The notes below the pieces were generated by a model. That model was not told where the DNA came from and ran no database searches. It worked only from the letters and a program-made list of their open reading frames with translations. Of a stretch of 41,778 bases of DNA, positions 22,601 to 39,488 are shown in pieces (position 1 is the first letter of the stretch; the number at the start of each line of letters is the position of its first letter). The position numbers were made by a program, and so were the translations under genes. This stretch comes from a virus. The stretch spans positions 1 to 41,778 of IMG/VR virus record IMGVR_UViG_3300031456_000010; one strand, given 5' to 3'.

Positions 22601-22821
22601 GACATGCTCAATGGGCAGCTATCGAGAAGCTGATAGTAGATACCGCTCTCCCCTATTCTATGAAATGGGCGGGCATCGAGATCTGCGCGGTTAAACAGGA
22701 CAAACTGTTGAGTGTGTTCCACGTTGCGCAGGACCTGTCTAAGGGCGCGGGTGACGTTGTCTTCTGCTGCGTACGTCGCCACGTGGACTTCCACGGCAAG
22801 GCCCCAACATAGGCCGATCAT
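22597..22821 (-). CDS. Hypothetical protein (74 aa)
   Basis: Track ORF. ATGA overlaps at both ends. Confidence 0.6.
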   Translation of the reverse strand: MIGLCWGLAVEVHVATYAAEDNVTRALRQVLRNVEHTQQFVLFNRADLDARPFHRIGESGIYYQLLDSCPLSMS

Positions 22822-22988: not shown

Positions 22989-23448
22989 GTCTTAGTCTCC
23001 CTTTGGCTTGTGTGAGGTACTTTTTGATCATCGATTCGGAGAGGTGGAACTGGGTCGCGATCTCGGAATAGGTGTACTCCTCGAGTGCATGCATCTCAAA
23101 AATGCGCTGACACTTGGGGGAGAGATGAGCGATTAATGCGAGTATCTCGCCGATCGTCTGCTCTCGTTCCAATTCCTCTTGTGGAGTTGCGGAGTGATCG
23201 AGCAGCTGCGCCAGCGCGAGAGGGTCGTTCCTCGGCGCTTTGTGCTGGCCATGCTCCCAAATGAGGTGCTTGGCGACCGTGTAGGCGTAGTAGGCCGGCT
23301 CCCGGATATCCCGGCTGGATTGGAGGATGCGGACATAGGTGTCTTGGAGGAGGTCCTCCACGTCTGCCCGGCGCATGCGCTTGCCCAGACGGTCCATGAG
23401 CTTGTGGCGCTGCGCATGGACTGCCTGCACTGCCGCGCGCCGGTTCAT
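22918..23448 (-). CDS. ECF-type (group 4) sigma-70 family sigma factor (176 aa)
   Basis: Start at ATG 23448 (ATGA overlap upstream). Region 2: ADVEDLLQDTYVRIL..EPAYYAYTVAKHLIWEH. Region 4 HTH: LSPKCQRIFEMHALEEYTYSEIATQFHLSESMIKKYLTQAKGRL. Confidence 0.85.
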   Translation of the reverse strand: MNRRAAVQAVHAQRHKLMDRLGKRMRRADVEDLLQDTYVRILQSSRDIREPAYYAYTVAKHLIWEHGQHKAPRNDPLALAQLLDHSATPQEELEREQTIGEILALIAHLSPKCQRIFEMHALEEYTYSEIATQFHLSESMIKKYLTQAKGRLRHDRHRPDRHPRGPARLKAGRAKA

Positions 23449-23597
23449 GTGCGCTGCGCGGCCTCGAGTGCGTGGATGTAGATCCTGACCGCTTCGACTA
23501 GCTCGGGCTCCCAGCTTCTGCACTTGTTCGGATTGATGGGGAGCAGCGCGACTCGGATGAGTTGCGCGACATCGAGCGGAATACTGACGGTCTTCAT
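23445..23597 (-). CDS. Hypothetical protein (50 aa)
   Basis: Below track cutoff. ATGA overlaps at both ends. MKTVSIPLDVAQLIRVALLPINPNKCRSWEPELVEAVRIYIHALEAAQRT. Confidence 0.5.
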   Translation of the reverse strand: MKTVSIPLDVAQLIRVALLPINPNKCRSWEPELVEAVRIYIHALEAAQRT

Positions 23598-23776
23598 GCG
23601 GCGATAGCCTCTTCAATCATGAGGGGGGCGAAATGCTCGTGCAGTCTTTGATGCTCACTGTCGGAGATCTCGTGGCTTGCCCACATGCTGTCGAGGATTT
23701 CTTGAGTCGTGGCGGCGGTGATGCGCCGACGAGATTCGATACGGGCGATTAACTTGTCCATGCGCGCAGTGTGCAC
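23594..23776 (-). CDS. Hypothetical protein (60 aa; GTG 23776 or ATG 23761)
   Basis: Track ORF with helical composition. No clear SD. Confidence 0.55.
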   Translation of the reverse strand: MHTARMDKLIARIESRRRITAATTQEILDSMWASHEISDSEHQRLHEHFAPLMIEEAIAA

Positions 23777-23792
23777 GCGGGGATGAGGGGCG

Positions 23793-24578
23793 TCAAGCTT
23801 TTCTCCATCGTTTCCAGCTGGGGTCGAAGGTGTAACCGGATTGGTAGAGAAAGGCTAGCGCGCGCTGCCAGTCTTCTTTAGAGGGGCGGCGGGCGTTGTT
23901 GAGGAGTTGAAATTGGTAGGTCGTGAAGGCGGGGCCGGGAAGTTGCCATTGGCCGGTGATTTGGGCGGGGAGACTTCCGCGGACATTGGGCAGTGCGTAT
24001 TTGGACGTGCCGGCGATCTTTAATGCGCCCTTGGCGCGCAGATAGTTTTGTGCCCATTGGTAGTTCTCGGGGGTGAGCCGCATGGCATTGGCGTCGAGCA
24101 AGTTAGTGACGTTAAAGGCGCCGGGGGGAACTCGAATGTGTTTTGGATTAGAGGGTTTAGGCAAGGGGCGCTTCGTATATTGGCGTTTCTGCATTTTATA
24201 GGACCAATACTCGTAGTTATGGCGGGGGCGGAGGCCGCGGGAACGCATGATCTTATGGAACTGGTTAATCTTCGCTATATTTTCCAGGCTCCGATTAGCC
24301 TCATTTATAGGCAAAACACCCGGAAAATACATCGAGATAAAAGAGTTAATGGTGTAAATACGCTTAGATTCGGGGTCGTTATTTCGAGATATTTTTTCGT
24401 CGATCCAGTACTCACACAGACCTTGGACTCGCTCGCGGACGAAGCCGAGGTCTGTAAGTCTATGACGTAGATAGGTAAATTGCCTGTGGGAGGGTTTGGC
24501 AATGCCGTGTGCGCGGAAGAGCGACGTCAGCTCGAAGGCGAGGTCCCGGGGAGGAGTAAGGGCCTGATAATTAAGCAT
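23793..24578 (-). CDS. Basic 261-aa protein, first gene of the leftward early operon, adjacent to the iteron region
   Basis: Long ORF, Lys/Arg/Trp/Tyr-rich. No motif recognised and no SD before the ATG. Confidence 0.8.
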   Translation of the reverse strand: MLNYQALTPPRDLAFELTSLFRAHGIAKPSHRQFTYLRHRLTDLGFVRERVQGLCEYWIDEKISRNNDPESKRIYTINSFISMYFPGVLPINEANRSLENIAKINQFHKIMRSRGLRPRHNYEYWSYKMQKRQYTKRPLPKPSNPKHIRVPPGAFNVTNLLDANAMRLTPENYQWAQNYLRAKGALKIAGTSKYALPNVRGSLPAQITGQWQLPGPAFTTYQFQLLNNARRPSKEDWQRALAFLYQSGYTFDPSWKRWRKA

Positions 24579-24783
24579 GTTTGCAGGTAATCATTTGAGT
24601 GGAATAGATACGTAGATGTAAGTGTCTGATTAATATCGATAGATTGGAGTATACTATGTAAGCAGATAAAGATATATATCTAACAAGAATAGCTACTAGT
24701 AGGTGTACAGTAGTGAAATTCTATAGAGAGTTTGAGAGAAAGATCCGCTTGCATACGAAGCATTGATTCTAAAGGGAAAAAAG

Positions 24784-24799
24784 CACTTTTCGAAAAGTG
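24784..24799. repeat. Perfect 16-bp palindrome CACTTTTCGAAAAGTG (operator-like)
   Basis: Read directly. Shorter palindromes lie nearby: CGCTATAGCG at 24822-24831 and CTCTCGAGAG at 24985-24994. Confidence 0.9.
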
Positions 24800-24885
24800 A
24801 ACACGTGCCTGCGCTATAGCGACCCCTTTGGCGGCTGATCCGGGGTTATCTCCGATAAGGATCTTGGCCCTCAACTAGAGATGTC

Positions 24886-24975
24886 GACCCTCAATAGGAA
24901 GGGAGGATCGCTGTTGACCCTCAATAGGAAGGGAGAACCCTCAATAGGAAGGGAGAACCCTCAATAGGAAGGGGG
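24886..24975 (+). repeat. Four direct 20-bp iterons (G/A)ACCCTCAATAGGAAGGG(A/G)G
   Basis: Copies at 24886-24905, 24916-24935, 24936-24955 and 24956-24975, with start spacing 30, 20, 20 bp. A degenerate copy GGCCCTCAACTAGAG lies at 24866-24880. Confidence 0.9.
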
Positions 24976-25018
24976 GGTTCCCGTCTCTCGAGAGCGCCCT
25001 CTTCGATTAACGTGGATT

Positions 25019-25202
25019 TAACTTAGTTCCGACTTAACTTAATCTTCGTTGATCTAACTTAATGCATACAGCGCTGTATGCATTAAGTTAACTAACAGCT
25101 GTATAAACATTATGTAAAACTATAAGTAGCTGAAAAGATTATCTCTGCACTGCACCATGCGCATAATAACCATTAAGTTAAATAGCTCGTTATGTTAAGT
25201 TA
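25019..25202. repeat. Six TAACTTA / TAAGTTA boxes in AT-rich DNA
   Basis: Direct copies at 25019, 25035 and 25055; inverted copies at 25084, 25174 and 25196. The 10-mer CATTAAGTTA occurs at 25081 and 25171, with its complement at 25055. Confidence 0.85.
25055..25090. repeat. Perfect 36-bp palindrome TAACTTAATGCATACAGC|GCTGTATGCATTAAGTTA
   Basis: Read directly; the two 18-nt halves are exact reverse complements. Confidence 0.95.
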
Positions 25203-25360
25203 GCTGTATTTTGGCCCCCGCCGGGGTGTTTTCCAGGGAAGCGAAAAAGCTATACTCGACCCACCCACGTAATCTTTTAAAAAATTAACTTTGCGCTCAG
25301 GAGATATTGTTTTTGACTAAAACACTTGCGCGCAGAGTGCGCGCCGTGTAGGATTGAAGA

Positions 25361-25594
25361 ATGAAAACTAAATCATTTAAAGTAACGCTGCCCATTTGCG
25401 GATACGCCTCCGCAGCAGATCTGGAAAAATACGTTAGGGATGCCGTAATAGGTTGGTGCGGCCAGTACACGGGGGATTTGGATGACTGGCGCGACGAACT
25501 CGCAGATAACCGGAGTAAGATAAAAGTTACGCGGCTGAATTGCGTTCGAACAAAACGCCATGAAAAGAGAAGTGAGTCGACTGAATCGACCTAA
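25361..25594 (+). CDS. Hypothetical protein (77 aa)
   Basis: ATG preceded by AGGA. Isolated rightward gene between the control region and the leftward HNH cassette. Confidence 0.55.
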   Translation: MKTKSFKVTLPICGYASAADLEKYVRDAVIGWCGQYTGDLDDWRDELADNRSKIKVTRLNCVRTKRHEKRSESTEST

Positions 25595-26948: not shown

Positions 26949-27350
26949 ATGGAAACCCTGCCCAAAGAGTGCCCGTTCGAAGAGACGATCGAGGATTACG
27001 CACAGAGCATGGATTATTTGCTCTCTGACACGGCCGTGGAATGTCAAGAGATCAACAAGAAGCCGAAGAAGGCGCACCGCAATACACGGCTGCTCGATGC
27101 GATACAGGAAACCTTCGAGATCATCGGAGGGGTGCCACGGATGGCCATTTGGGCGGATCAGTATCCCGGAGATTTCTACAAACTCGTCGGCAAACAGATT
27201 CCCGGCATGGTTCAGCAGCTCAATTTCAACGGCCCGACGCAGATCAATATTCAACCCGCCCTACCTCGGAGTGCGCTCGATGGTGAAAGTGACGAAACAA
27301 CGCATGCAGGTGCCCATCGGCTCCTCGACGCCGATCCCCGTGAGCTATGA
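26949..27350 (+). CDS. Putative terminase small subunit (133 aa)
   Basis: First gene of the rightward block, upstream of TerL. The RMAIWADQYPGDFYKLVGKQIP segment recalls podovirus TerS-like proteins. Assignment is mainly positional. Confidence 0.55.
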   Translation: METLPKECPFEETIEDYAQSMDYLLSDTAVECQEINKKPKKAHRNTRLLDAIQETFEIIGGVPRMAIWADQYPGDFYKLVGKQIPGMVQQLNFNGPTQINIQPALPRSALDGESDETTHAGAHRLLDADPREL

Positions 27351-27637: not shown

Positions 27638-29038
27638 GTGCGGCTCGAGTATGAGCCGCGCCCGGCCTTCCAAGCCTTTCACGCTCGTTGGCAACGTTTT
27701 GCGCTGATGGTGTGTCATCGCCGCGCGGGGAAGACAGTCGGGGCCATCAATGAGGCGATCAACCGGGCGGTCTACAACAAAAATAAGCGCCCCCGCTATG
27801 CCTATATCGCGCCCTTGCGATCTCAGGCGAAGAAAGTCGTGTGGGAGTACGTCAAGGAGTACACCGCAGGCTTAGAGGCGAAGAAGCCGTCTGAATCGGA
27901 GCTGACGGTCACCTACGCACACAACGGCGCGACGATTGAGCTGTTTGGTGCGGACGGACCCAACGCGGAGGCCATGCGCGGCAATTACTTCGACGGGGTC
28001 GTCGTCGATGAGTACGGCGACATGGCCCCGTCTGTCTTGCCGAAAATCATTATCCCTACGCTAACTGACCGCAAAGGTTGGGCCGTGCTGATCGGGACGT
28101 TCAAGGGGAAAAACCACTTTTATAAAATGTCGGAGAACTACCAAGGGCGCATGCTGCCCCCGGATATCGATCCGATTGAGTTTGTGCGTCAGCGCTATCA
28201 CATGATCCTACGCGCGGATCAGTCCGGGATCATCCCTGCTGAGGAGCTGGCCTTTATCCGCACGCAGCTGGAGGACGAAGAGTACCGACAAGAGTACCTA
28301 TGCGACCCCACGGCGGCGATTAAGGGCACGTACTACGCGGCAACGATCGCCAAACTCGAAGGCGCCGGCCAGATTTACTCGGACCTCGCCGAGTACGACC
28401 CCGATCAGGAGGTGGAGTGCGTTTTCGACATCGGCCGCACCGATGGCACAGCCTGCTGGTTTTGGCAGAAACGACCCGGTGGGGTTGCCCTCGTCGACTA
28501 CTTCGAGATGCAGGGCAAGGGGTGCGATGAGGCGTTCCAAGAGCTGAATGGCACGGTACCGGATGGCAGTGTGGACTATCGGCGCAAGTACGCCTATCGG
28601 AAGATCTGGTTGCCACACGATGCCAAGGCGAAAACCTTTGCGTCGCGCCGCTCCACGATTGAGCAGTTTTTGGATGAGTACGGGCCTTCGGTGGTCCAAA
28701 TCGTGCCGAAACTAGATCTGATCGATGGTATTTCCGCTGTACGCAAGGTTTTGCCGATGTGCTACTTTAGCCCGCGGTCGACGGATGGAGTGGAAGGGTT
28801 ACGCGCCTACCAACGCGAGTGGGACGAGGAGAAGAAGGTCTTCTCGAATAACCCGCTGCACAACTGGGCGAGCCATCCTTCGGACAGCTTTCGCTACTTC
28901 GCCATCGTGGCGCAGCCTTTTGTGGTGGAGGATAAGAAGCCGGAGAAGCGACGCATTATCATCCCGAACGCTGGGACGCTCGATGAGCTGTTTGCAGAGC
29001 ACGATAAACGCATGAGAATGTTACGGAGACGTGGATGA
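27638..29038 (+). CDS. Terminase large subunit (466 aa)
   Basis: GTG start. Walker A CHRRAGKT, Walker B GVVVDEYGD, and nuclease-domain motifs FDIGRTDGTACWFWQ and LPHDA. Confidence 0.9.
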   Translation: MRLEYEPRPAFQAFHARWQRFALMVCHRRAGKTVGAINEAINRAVYNKNKRPRYAYIAPLRSQAKKVVWEYVKEYTAGLEAKKPSESELTVTYAHNGATIELFGADGPNAEAMRGNYFDGVVVDEYGDMAPSVLPKIIIPTLTDRKGWAVLIGTFKGKNHFYKMSENYQGRMLPPDIDPIEFVRQRYHMILRADQSGIIPAEELAFIRTQLEDEEYRQEYLCDPTAAIKGTYYAATIAKLEGAGQIYSDLAEYDPDQEVECVFDIGRTDGTACWFWQKRPGGVALVDYFEMQGKGCDEAFQELNGTVPDGSVDYRRKYAYRKIWLPHDAKAKTFASRRSTIEQFLDEYGPSVVQIVPKLDLIDGISAVRKVLPMCYFSPRSTDGVEGLRAYQREWDEEKKVFSNNPLHNWASHPSDSFRYFAIVAQPFVVEDKKPEKRRIIIPNAGTLDELFAEHDKRMRMLRRRG

Positions 29039-37847: not shown

Positions 37848-39488
37848 ATGCCATTTCCGATTAGTGGCCCTCGAGGCATGCGGCCGGCGAGGCTGCTGCA
37901 GCCATCGCCGCAGATGACTCAGTGCGACAAGGTGCCCGCGCCGATTGCGGGCATCAATGCGGTCACGAACATCGCTGAAATGGGCCCTAACGATGCGGTG
38001 TCGTTGTTCAATATGATCCCCTCGCGATACGGCTGCAAAATCCGCACAGGCTATGCAGAGTGGTGCACGAATGTCGGTACCGGGGGCGTGAAAACGATCA
38101 TCCCATTCACGGGATCGATTGCGATTGAGGATCGACTCTTTGCTTGCGCAGGCAACGGCATTTACGAAGTCTCGGCTAGCTCTGCGGCGCCGAGCTTGAT
38201 TGAGACGTTTCCAACGGTTGACGCCACATCGGGCTACGGCGGCTGGACGAACTTTACAACGATCGCGGGCCGTTTCTCGCTCTACACAGATGAGTCGAAT
38301 GGCTACTACATTTGGAATGAATCAACGGATGACTGGACCAAAACAGCGGCTGGAGCCGCGGCCGGTCAGATTGATGGTGTTGACCCGGCAGAGTTTGTCG
38401 GGGTCACGATCTATAAAAGTCGTGCCTGGTTTGTTCGGAAAAACTCAGCCGTGGCCTACTATCTTCCAGTTGGGCTCATCACAGGTCGGGTAACGGAATT
38501 CAACTTCGGCAACAAGTTTAAGCAAGGCGGAAACCTCGCCGCGCTGTATACCTGGACGGTTGACGGTGGCGCGGGCATTAACTCATTTCTCGTTGCGATC
38601 TCAACGTCAGGCGATGTGGTGGTGTACCAAGGAGATGACCCTGATGTTCCCGGTAACTTCATTGAACGCGGAAATTGGTTCATCGGGCAACCCCCCGCAG
38701 GGCGGCGTCTGGCCGGTGCTTTCGGTGGCGAGCTGTACTTGCTATCGACATATGGACTACTCCCGATGTCGAAGCTCATCTCGGGTGCTTTGGTGCAGCA
38801 GAATGACATCTACCTGACGCGCAAAATCACGCCGCTAATCAACGATGAGATGCAGCTCTCACTAGACGATCTGGGCTGGGAAGTGCGGTTGGTTCCGAAC
38901 GAGAACCTGATTCTTGTGGCGGTGCCTAAGCAGGTTGGACTTGAATCGAAACAGTTTGTACAGAGCATTAATTCAGAAGGTTGGGCGATCTACCGCAGCA
39001 TTCCCTACTTTACGGGCGATACGTGGCACTCTCAGTACTACATTGGCACAGACGATAATCGAGTCCTCCTTCATACGGGAAGCTTAGACGGTGTGCTTCT
39101 TGCTGATCCGGACGCGGCGACTCAGGTTGAGTGGTCTGGGATTATGGGATTTCGAGACTACGGCGCGCCCGGTACGTTCAATCGGACACAGTTTATTCGC
39201 CCTGTGTTTATGGCGGAGCAGGCACCAAGTTACAACGTAGAGGCGCGCTATGACTACAACATCGCGGAGGCGACTGCGCCGCCCGATGCTTCGCCGACAA
39301 GCGGTGCGTTGTGGGACGCAGCGATTTGGGATGTTGATTTGTGGGGCGGCGACTTCCAGATTATCGATAATCTACGAGGGGGGTCTGGAATCGGCCGTGC
39401 GATCGCGATCGCGATCAATGGTCGCTCAGCAAGTAAAACGACGCTCCTACGCTTTGATGTCATGACGGACGGTGGATGGCAGCTTTAA
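37848..39488 (+). CDS. Putative tail tubular B / nozzle-like protein (546 aa)
   Basis: Large beta-rich ORF directly after the previous gene (stop TAA then ATG). Confidence 0.75.
   Translation: MPFPISGPRGMRPARLLQPSPQMTQCDKVPAPIAGINAVTNIAEMGPNDAVSLFNMIPSRYGCKIRTGYAEWCTNVGTGGVKTIIPFTGSIAIEDRLFACAGNGIYEVSASSAAPSLIETFPTVDATSGYGGWTNFTTIAGRFSLYTDESNGYYIWNESTDDWTKTAAGAAAGQIDGVDPAEFVGVTIYKSRAWFVRKNSAVAYYLPVGLITGRVTEFNFGNKFKQGGNLAALYTWTVDGGAGINSFLVAISTSGDVVVYQGDDPDVPGNFIERGNWFIGQPPAGRRLAGAFGGELYLLSTYGLLPMSKLISGALVQQNDIYLTRKITPLINDEMQLSLDDLGWEVRLVPNENLILVAVPKQVGLESKQFVQSINSEGWAIYRSIPYFTGDTWHSQYYIGTDDNRVLLHTGSLDGVLLADPDAATQVEWSGIMGFRDYGAPGTFNRTQFIRPVFMAEQAPSYNVEARYDYNIAEATAPPDASPTSGALWDAAIWDVDLWGGDFQIIDNLRGGSGIGRAIAIAINGRSASKTTLLRFDVMTDGGWQL

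What the first reader, a model, noticed from the sequence alone, without database searches (positions are those of the whole stretch)
24866..24975. Four helically phased 20-bp iterons in the non-coding control region
(G/A)ACCCTCAATAGGAAGGG(A/G)G occurs four times in direct orientation with start spacing 30, 20 and 20 bp, which is whole helical turns. A degenerate fifth copy lies just upstream. Three of the copies abut with no spacer.

The layout is iterons, then AT-rich DNA, then a long palindrome (25055-25090). This parallels the textbook lambda ori layout (four O-binding iterons, an AT-rich segment, a palindrome) and iteron-type plasmid origins. Here the iterons lie outside any gene, about 300 bp from the start of the basic 261-aa first early gene. 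Alternative roles are a regulator operator array or a packaging recognition site.
Basis: partly seen in the sequence, partly recalled or inferred. Interest (0 to 1): 0.62.

Follow-up and report, generated by a model that had tools for sequence, protein, structure and literature searches.

The report
Phage-specific 20-bp repeat array beside origin
Four near-identical 20-base repeats sit in the gene-free control region of an uncultured 41.6-kb phage, and they are most likely extra binding sites for a phage DNA-binding protein at the edge of the probable replication origin, which is an ordinary design even though this array is unique to this phage.

Summary
Four 20-mers lie at 24886, 24916, 24936 and 24956, with a degenerate copy at 24866. 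Start spacing is 20/30/20/20. It is the strongest tandem repeat in the genome and cannot code for protein.

The array lies in about 600 bp between the candidate leftward and rightward promoters, next to AT-rich DNA and a palindrome. Its unit resembles a lambda ori iteron (13 of 18 bases). But the genome has no lambda O-like or Rep_3 initiator, and the region has no DnaA box.

None of 12 related phages (TerL 62-81% identical) carries this array. What they share is a set of TTAACWTAAT boxes facing each other across the palindrome, a SaPI/P4-like origin design that fits the phage's primase-helicase.

The 20-mer is an amplified copy of an ancestral CCCT-N-AGGG element. That element abuts a conserved block, GGGGTTTCSCGTC. 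Two relatives have their own phased arrays at the same spot.

The adjacent first early gene is conserved in all relatives. It is predicted to have four tandem winged-helix-like units, which makes it the best candidate binder.

This scan has already reported similar origin-like repeat regions in other phages.

The parts
24866..24885 (+). Degenerate copy 0 of the repeat (GGCCCTCAACTAGAGATGTC)
   Evidence: It matches the unit at 11 of 20 bases, shares CCCTCAA, and lies 20 bp before copy 1.
24886..24905 (+). Iteron 1 (GACCCTCAATAGGAAGGGAG), followed by the 10-bp spacer 24906-24915
24916..24935 (+). Iteron 2 (GACCCTCAATAGGAAGGGAG)
24936..24955 (+). Iteron 3 (AACCCTCAATAGGAAGGGAG)
24956..24975 (+). 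Iteron 4 (AACCCTCAATAGGAAGGGGG). Its G-run runs into the conserved block.
24973..24998 (+). Conserved block GGGGGTTCCCGTCTCTCGAGAGCGCC. The family consensus is GGGGTTTC(C/G)CGTCnCTCACACGC. It occurs once in the genome.
   Evidence: It is present at the homologous place in most relatives.
25018..25198 (.). Seven TTAACWTAAT boxes, three on the + strand followed by four on the - strand, facing each other across the perfect 36-bp palindrome (25055-25090) in AT-rich DNA. This is the probable core origin.
   Evidence: 7 matches against 1.2 expected, none elsewhere in the genome. One search shows the palindrome. One search shows the boxes in all relatives. One search gives the AT content.
23793..24578 (-). 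First leftward early gene, 261 aa, basic, predicted to have four tandem winged-helix-like units. It is the candidate binder of the array.
   Evidence: Searches show homologues as the first early gene in all relatives. Searches give the AlphaFold models. Searches show that the top fold hits are winged-helix proteins, none significant. One search shows the family is restricted to this phage group.
24718..24754 (-). Candidate leftward early promoter. The conserved pattern is ..GCAAGC..N..CTATAGAAT, with the -10-like CTATAG at 24721-24726.
   Evidence: a conserved block in the alignment of 10 upstream regions. The promoter assignment is inferred.
25325..25354 (+). Rightward promoter element CTTGCGCGCAGAGTGCGCG plus TAGGAT, which ends 6 nt before the ATG of the 77-aa ORF.
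   Evidence: It is conserved, and often duplicated, in relatives.

Best explanation
The 20-mers are a lineage-specific array of protein-binding sites at the early-gene edge of the phage's origin and control region. An ancestral element of about 20 bp, CCCT-N(6-10)-AGGG(G), abuts the conserved block GGGGTTTCSCGTC. In this phage it was amplified in tandem to four or five copies, keeping a register of multiples of 10 bp.

The most likely binder is the product of the adjacent first early gene, a basic 261-aa protein predicted to consist of four tandem winged-helix-like units. If two such units read one 20-bp site, as the WH1 and WH2 domains of plasmid Rep proteins do, then one molecule would cover two repeats and the array would hold two molecules.

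Bound protein would then do one or both of two things. It could assist or license opening of the neighbouring core origin, the opposed TTAACWTAAT boxes and palindrome, which are probably read by the VapE-type primase-helicase. Or it could feed back on the leftward early promoter about 150 bp away.

Shown here: the repeats, their uniqueness, the conserved layout, the conserved neighbouring gene and its predicted fold. Inferred: who binds the array and what the binding does.
For: - **The repeats are exact, phased and non-coding**.
- **They lie between candidate promoters.** The leftward promoter is placed near 24720 and the rightward one at 25325-25354.
- **No RNA role is indicated.** Folding z-scores are +0.3 and +1.2, and Rfam gives no match.
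- **The layout is conserved.** All 12 relatives have a large gap (545-1042 bp as called) with the same order of elements.
- **The last iteron is homologous to the element upstream of the block in relatives.** In 5 of 9 relatives the best match to the iteron core falls at -13 or -14 from the block. L099 carries an extra copy, ACCCTCCGAGGGAAAGG (12 of 17, p=0.009).
- **Independent phased arrays occur at the same spot.** L104 has 4 x AATCTCTC at spacing 19/10/20 (reached by 1 of 200 shuffles). L103 has ACCCTCTCA twice, 20 bp apart. CTC is enriched over GAG there (31:18 against 87:108, p=0.025), with distances peaking at 20.
- **The neighbouring gene is always first and always present** (40-60% identity).
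- **Its models show repeated helix-helix-strand-strand units.** The full-length model (pLDDT 84.7) shows four such units and the C-terminal-half model (pLDDT 90.2) shows two. The top structural hits are winged-helix DNA binders and tandem-winged-helix proteins such as Zur-DNA, GntR, MarR, SelB and UFL1.
- **Plasmid Rep monomers bind 17-22-bp iterons** through WH1 and WH2, and their cooperativity depends on helical phase (PMC4980987).
Against: - No binding data exist.
- Every Foldseek E-value is non-significant (best 0.097 and 0.2), so the winged-helix assignment rests on the secondary-structure pattern and on the consistency of the hits.
- Winged-helix domains can also mediate protein contacts.
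- Most relatives keep the protein but have no clear array, so the protein does not need one.
- Iteron similarity (shared ACCCTC in L103 and L099) follows the right-hand side of the region and TerL similarity, not similarity of the 261-aa protein.
- Perfect identity of abutting copies is also what recent replication slippage would give.
Confidence: 0.42

Rival explanations
1. The 20-mers are themselves the core origin, that is, the initiator-binding iterons of a lambda-type or iteron-plasmid-type origin. An initiator would oligomerise on the four repeats and melt the adjacent AT-rich DNA.
For: The array has four phased repeats of iteron size. The unit matches lambda ITN1 at 13 of 18 bases, including CCCTCAA, and has a C-rich/G-rich dyad. 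AT-rich DNA and a palindrome follow within 30-80 bp. A candidate winged-helix protein is encoded next door, as in plasmid rep-ori units. The GC-skew minimum lies within about 2.2 kb.
Against: The genome has no lambda O-like or Rep_3 domain, and hhalign of the 261-aa family against lambda O finds nothing. The region has no DnaA box. The array is missing from all relatives, yet they must replicate the same way. What they conserve is the opposed TTAACWTAAT box set. The phage has its own PolA and a self-loading-type primase-helicase.
Confidence: 0.2
2. The array has no function. It would be a recent replication-slippage expansion of a 20-bp stretch, tolerated because the DNA is non-coding.
For: Copies 2-4 abut and are identical apart from junction bases. 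The array is absent from every relative, including the closest one (TerL 81%). Tandem duplication is common in these regions; for example, the rightward promoter element occurs in 2-3 copies in L098, L100 and L105.
Against: Copy 1 lies behind a 10-bp spacer, and a diverged copy 0 lies 20 bp further on. Both point to an older, register-keeping history. Unrelated phased arrays arose at the same spot in L104 and L103. The amplified unit is the ancestral element attached to a conserved block.
Confidence: 0.17
3. The array is a packaging recognition site of the cosB or pac type. The small terminase would bind the phased repeats, and the conserved block next to them would be the cleavage site.
For: The array sits next to a conserved GC-rich block, and variable repeats beside a conserved cut site would mirror lambda cosB and cosN. 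In Brucella phage Tb relatives the linear record begins in the equivalent divergent gap. Iteron similarity follows the late-gene side of the region. The N-terminus of the TerS-like protein falls into two variants, and the window, L103 and L097 share one of them.
Against: The TerS-like gene is 1.97 kb away, beyond a variable leftward cassette with HNH-like genes. TerL is of the PF03237 type and the portal is Mx8-like. From my own knowledge, these go with headful packaging and a pac site in or near terS. Contig ends of relatives fall at different map positions, and the window's 127-bp terminal repeat is only an assembler overlap. The 133-aa protein matches no TerS profile.
Confidence: 0.1
4. The array works as RNA. 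It would be four small CCCU/AGGG hairpins with GGA-containing loops (a CsrA/RsmA-type sponge) or a repeated Shine-Dalgarno-like or anti-Shine-Dalgarno-like leader.
For: On the + strand each unit can form a 4-bp stem with AUAGGA in the loop, and it carries AGGAAGGGAG (pattern recalled from my own knowledge).
Against: Folding energy is no better than for shuffled sequence on either strand. Rfam gives no match. No promoter reading through the array was found. The array lies upstream of the candidate leftward promoter.
Confidence: 0.03

Closest known systems
Bacteriophage lambda ori (four O-binding iterons, AT-rich segment, palindrome)
   Same: Both have four direct repeats of 18-20 bp at about 20-bp spacing. 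Lambda's start at 39034, 39054, 39078 and 39101, giving spacing 20/24/23. In both, the unit has a C-rich left arm, an A/T-rich centre and a G-rich right arm. ACCCTCAATAGGAAGGGA matches ATCCCTCAAAACGAGGGA at 13 of 18 bases. Both are followed by AT-rich DNA and then a palindrome.
   Different: Lambda ori lies inside the O gene, whereas this array is intergenic. No O-like protein is encoded here. The dyad arms are only 4 bp long. A GC-rich conserved block lies between the repeats and the AT-rich DNA. The array is not conserved among relatives.
Iteron-plasmid origins (F, pPS10, pSC101, R6K, RK2) with Rep initiators built from WH1 and WH2 domains (PMC4980987)
   Same: Plasmid origins have 2-7 direct repeats of 17-22 bp in helical register, next to the gene of a winged-helix protein that they would also autoregulate. 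The order AT-rich DNA, iterons, promoter, gene is the same.
   Different: The 261-aa protein has no Rep_3 signature. It is predicted to have four small winged-helix-like units instead of two larger ones. The region has no DnaA box. The phage carries its own polymerase and primase-helicase.
SaPI / P4-type origins read by self-loading primase-helicases (PMC9371898)
   Same: The phage encodes a VapE/D5-type primase-helicase. Next to the 20-mers lie seven short boxes in two opposed sets around AT-rich DNA. This matches the SaPI rule of at least two iterons on each side pointing in opposite directions.
   Different: That description fits the TTAACWTAAT boxes, not the 20-mers. The helicase gene is 6 kb away rather than adjacent. 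The 20-mers are unidirectional and three times longer than SaPI iterons.
Lambda cosB R-sites and other small-terminase binding arrays
   Same: Both are short repeated sites beside a conserved sequence, in the gap that separates the packaging and late genes from the rest of the genome.
   Different: The array is not adjacent to the TerS-like gene. The terminase type does not suggest cos packaging. No termini data exist.

Membership tests
Lambda-type origin (O-some) | Four or so ~18-19-bp iterons with internal dyad symmetry at ~20-bp spacing | tested here: met
   The array has 4 copies plus 1 degenerate copy, and the unit matches ITN1 at 13 of 18 bases. The dyad is short (CCCT/AGGG).
Lambda-type origin (O-some) | An O-like initiator (Pfam Phage_rep_O) is encoded, with the origin inside its gene | tested here: not met
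   no PF04492 match in six frames; hhalign probability 0.2%. The array is intergenic.
Iteron-plasmid origin (Rep_3 / RepE / pi type) | Direct repeats of 17-22 bp, 2-7 copies, in helical register | tested here: met
   Criteria taken from PMC4980987.
Iteron-plasmid origin (Rep_3 / RepE / pi type) | An adjacent Rep initiator of the WH1-WH2 family | tested here: inconclusive
   The adjacent 261-aa protein is predicted to have four winged-helix-like units. It has no Pfam, NCBIfam or PHROG match, the genome has no PF01051 match, and all fold matches are non-significant.
Iteron-plasmid origin (Rep_3 / RepE / pi type) | DnaA boxes in the origin | tested here: not met
   TTATCCACA with up to 1 mismatch does not occur in 24579-25360.
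Iteron-plasmid origin (Rep_3 / RepE / pi type) | Initiator binding to the iterons and iteron-dependent replication | not testable with these tools
   This needs EMSA or footprinting and a replication assay.
SaPI / P4-type origin | A self-loading primase-helicase is encoded | tested here: met
   the 720-aa protein has a VapE-like domain (E 1.7e-52) and matches primase and helicase PHROGs.
SaPI / P4-type origin | Short iterons in two opposed sets flanking AT-rich DNA | tested here: not met
   The 20-mers all point one way. The neighbouring TTAACWTAAT boxes do meet this feature.
Terminase recognition site (cosB / pac) | Virion DNA ends or the headful series start at or next to the site | not testable with these tools
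The window's 127-bp end repeat is an assembler overlap.
Terminase recognition site (cosB / pac) | Site in or directly upstream of the small-terminase gene | tested here: not met
   The TerS-like ORF starts at 26949, which is 1.97 kb away behind a leftward cassette.

The most novel reading that the evidence does not exclude
The 261-aa protein founds a new class of phage origin or early-control factor. It would be a single chain of four tandem winged-helix units that reads 20-bp sites in pairs (two units per site, two sites per molecule). Phages of this clade would tune origin firing or early transcription by expanding or contracting the site array next to a fixed origin core, which would be a plasmid-like iteron copy-control logic in a lytic phage that replicates with its own polymerase and primase-helicase.
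Probability: 0.15. Interest if true: 0.55.

Novelty: new member of a known kind. Interest (0 to 1): 0.36.

Why it matters
This phage group has many complete genomes of about 41-42 kb in public assemblies and no cultured member. For this group, the work separates three elements:
- a probable core origin, the opposed TTAACWTAAT boxes around a palindrome;
- a fast-evolving accessory repeat array;
- a concrete candidate binder, an orphan protein with four winged-helix-like units.

That gives a directly testable protein-DNA pair. It also shows binding-site arrays being gained and lost at one fixed spot among close relatives. It does not reveal a new kind of element.

Tried and rejected
- **Close relatives by DNA.** No match in the phage collection.
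- **Exact iteron core elsewhere.** Absent from IMG/VR. The GTDB genomes give 12 single-copy hits, at or below chance for a 17-mer in 596 Gb.
- **Structured RNA.** Rejected: folding z-scores of +0.3 and +1.2, only noise in Rfam, no tRNA.
- **Lambda O or Rep_3 initiator.** Rejected.
- **DnaA boxes.** None in the region.
- **Profile annotation of small early and late ORFs.** It found an ECF sigma factor, DUF6011, HNH-like proteins, PolA, SNF2, an exonuclease and a VRR-NUC-like endonuclease. It found no repressor, partition protein or known initiator.
- **ECF-type promoter in the block or array.** I found no consistent -35/-10 pair by eye across relatives.
- **Brucella phage literature on genome ends.** Nothing usable.
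- **Contig ends of relatives as a proxy for physical ends.** They scatter.
- **Co-variation of repeat sequence with the 261-aa protein.** There are too few relatives with arrays, and the weak signal points instead to linkage with the right-hand side of the region.
- **Inverted partial iteron at the leftward promoter.** CTCTCTATAG and TCTCTCAAAC look like partial copies, but the match is no better than chance for a 10-mer with 3 mismatches in 782 bp.

Full report
**What the window is.** The window is a complete, circularly assembled uncultured phage genome from IMG/VR. Its 127-bp terminal repeat is an assembler overlap, so the true length is 41,651 bp and says nothing about physical ends.

The genome encodes:
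- a PF03237-type TerL (27638-29038) and a portal 41% identical to that of Myxococcus phage Mx8;
- DNA polymerase A, an SNF2 helicase, an exonuclease and a VRR-NUC-like endonuclease;
- a 720-aa VapE-type primase-helicase;
- an ECF-type sigma factor.

No DNA-level relative exists in the cultured-phage collection.

**The observation.** The four 20-mers lie at 24886-24905, 24916-24935, 24936-24955 and 24956-24975, with an identical 17-nt core. Start spacing is 30/20/20. A degenerate copy lies at 24866-24885. This is the highest-scoring tandem repeat of the genome. It does not recur elsewhere in the genome. Shuffles never reach this copy number (0 of 200). A 20-bp period cannot be coding. 'Whole helical turns' is only approximate at 10.5 bp per turn.

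**Setting.** The array lies in a 782-bp gap (24579-25360).
- To the left, the early operon runs leftward. It starts with a 261-aa gene (23793-24578) and then reaches the sigma factor.
- To the right come a 77-aa ORF, a leftward cassette with two HNH-like genes, a TerS-like ORF (26949), TerL and the portal.
- An alignment of ten upstream regions shows a conserved promoter-like block, GCAAGC..CTATA(T/G)A, about 150 nt before the early gene. In the window the -10-like CTATAG lies at 24721-24726 on the minus strand.
- The rightward promoter element CTTGCGCGCAGAGTGCGCG plus TAGGAT is at 25325-25354.

The array therefore sits in about 600 bp between these two candidate outward-facing promoters.

**Relatives.** The exact core is absent from IMG/VR. 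In 596 Gb of prokaryote genomes it occurs only as chance singletons. Protein searches found a large family of phages of about 41-42 kb. I fetched 12 distinct relatives with TerL 62-81% identical: L097-L105, L108, L110 and L112. L109 and L111 duplicate L108.

All have the same divergent gap, and most of the closer relatives show the same order of elements:
1. an AT-rich leftward promoter region;
2. a variable segment;
3. the conserved block GGGGTTTC(C/G)CGTCnCTCACACGC;
4. TTAAC(A/T)TAAT boxes, direct on the left and inverted on the right of a palindrome;
5. a very conserved ~50-bp block, CACCATKCGCATAATAMCCATTAAGTTAAAT..TTATGTTAAC;
6. a GC-rich element, GGCCCCCGGTGGGG..TTTCC;
7. one to three copies of the rightward promoter.

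None of the relatives has the 4 x 20-bp array.

**What the 20-mer is derived from.** The fourth iteron runs straight into the conserved block. In relatives the sequence at that same place has the same form:
- GCCCT-AAAGGT-GGGGG in L102;
- GCCCT-GTATTGAT-GGGG in L097;
- CCTCTCAGAATGAGGAG in L103.

The best ungapped match to the iteron core falls at -13 or -14 from the block in 5 of 9 relatives. The G-run helps this along. L099 has an extra upstream copy, ACCCTCCGAGGGAAAGG (12 of 17, p=0.009).

Two relatives have their own phased arrays at this spot. L104 has four AATCTCTC-type 8-mers at spacing 19/10/20, a copy number reached by 1 of 200 shuffles. L103, the closest relative by TerL, has ACCCTCTCA twice, 20 bp apart. 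Across relatives CTC outnumbers GAG in this segment (31:18 against 87:108 elsewhere in the gaps, Fisher p=0.025), and CTC-to-CTC distances peak at 20 bp. The other relatives show nothing significant.

The array is therefore a lineage-specific amplification of an ancestral element at a spot where phased repeats have arisen more than once.

**The neighbouring protein.** The 261-aa product has no Pfam, PHROG or NCBIfam match. Homologues (40-60% identity) are the first leftward gene in every relative. A profile search of 1.84 billion representative proteins finds only 12 hits, 10 of them at E ≤ 1e-10, so this is an orphan family of this phage group.

- AlphaFold2 on the family alignment gives pLDDT 84.7 and pTM 0.44, with four repeated helix-helix-strand-strand units at residues 17-60, 77-127, 157-195 and 220-260.
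- The C-terminal half alone gives pLDDT 90.2 and pTM 0.67.
- Foldseek finds no significant match (best E 0.097 and 0.2).
- The top hits are nevertheless consistently winged-helix DNA binders (Zur-DNA, probability 0.84-0.89 over about 55 residues; GntR, IclR, MarR, MecI, TubR) and tandem-winged-helix proteins (SelB C-terminus, UFL1/DDRGK1, RPC62, Stn1).
- A PDB profile search gives only a weak hit to the RPA32 winged helix (E 0.39).

I read the protein as four winged-helix-like units. This is a prediction, not a demonstration.

**Comparison with known origins.** Lambda's iterons were fetched for comparison. The units are similar (13 of 18 bases, sharing CCCTCAA, with a C-arm and a G-arm), and so is the spacing. 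But there is no O-like protein and no Rep_3 protein. The region has no DnaA box. The array also fails the conservation test that a core origin should pass.

The TTAACWTAAT boxes do pass that test. There are seven copies, all within 25018-25198, three on the + strand and then four on the - strand, and none elsewhere (1.2 expected). They are present in all relatives. This is the SaPI design: opposed iterons around AT-rich DNA, read by the winged-helix tail of a self-loading helicase (PMC9371898). The phage has such a helicase.

The detrended GC-skew minimum is at 22,661. That is compatible with an origin nearby but is confounded by gene orientation.

**Conclusion.**
- Best reading (0.42): an accessory, fast-evolving protein-binding array at the early-gene edge of the origin and control region, probably bound by the protein with four winged-helix-like units.

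One caveat cuts against the proposed binder. Repeat similarity between the window, L103 and L099 follows the right-hand side of the region and the late genes, not similarity of the 261-aa protein.

This scan has reported comparable origin-like iteron regions in other phages, so the kind of element is known.

Noticed in passing
window 25018-25198: Seven TTAACWTAAT boxes (three on the + strand, then four on the - strand) face each other across the perfect 36-bp palindrome. The box family and its opposed layout are conserved in all relatives fetched. This looks like a SaPI/P4-type core origin for the VapE-type primase-helicase.
   Followed up: partly
window 24973-24998; L098, L101, L102, L104, L097 at the homologous place: A conserved block of about 23 bp, GGGGTTTC(C/G)CGTCnCTCACACGC, occurs once per genome, directly right of the repeat hotspot. 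Its function is unknown. I found no consistent promoter or hairpin reading for it.
   Followed up: partly
window 25147-25203: This is the most conserved non-coding stretch of the region: CACCATKCGCATAATAMCCATTAAGTTAAAT..RTTATGTTAAC. It is nearly identical in 9 relatives that otherwise share only about 65% of the region.
   Followed up: no
window 25211-25237: A GC-rich island, TTGGCCCCCGCCGGGGTGTTTTCCAGG, looks like a terminator on the + strand and is conserved in relatives. L101 has CCCCCGGCACCCC, which breaks the hairpin, so the conserved feature may be the sequence rather than an RNA stem.
   Followed up: no
window 25325-25363: The -10-like TAGGAT of the rightward promoter ends 6 nt before the ATG of the 77-aa ORF, which suggests a leaderless mRNA. 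The promoter element is duplicated two or three times in L098, L099, L100 and L105.
   Followed up: no
window 23793-24578 (-): The 261-aa family has only 12 hits (10 at E ≤ 1e-10) in 1.84 billion representative proteins. Two of them are short proteins of 99-102 aa that cover only the last one to two winged-helix-like units.
   Followed up: partly
window 24579-25360 compared with L098, L105, L103 and L099: The gap is mosaic. Its left third is most like L098 and L105. The repeat segment and the right half are most like L103 and L099. This implies a recombination junction inside the control region.
   Followed up: partly
window 23001-25000: GC skew is strongly positive (+0.18 to +0.22) although the genes here lie on the minus strand. 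The rest of the leftward block has a skew near 0 or slightly negative.
   Followed up: no
window 24784-24799: A perfect 16-bp palindrome, CACTTTTCGAAAAGTG, is followed on the minus strand by CTTTTTTCC. It lies between the array and the candidate leftward promoter.
   Followed up: no
window 26949-27350 and alignment A3: The TerS-like 133-aa protein matches no terminase profile. It is 52-72% identical among relatives. Its first ~35 residues fall into two variants: the window, L103, L097 and L105 share one, and L098-L101 and L104 share the other.
   Followed up: partly
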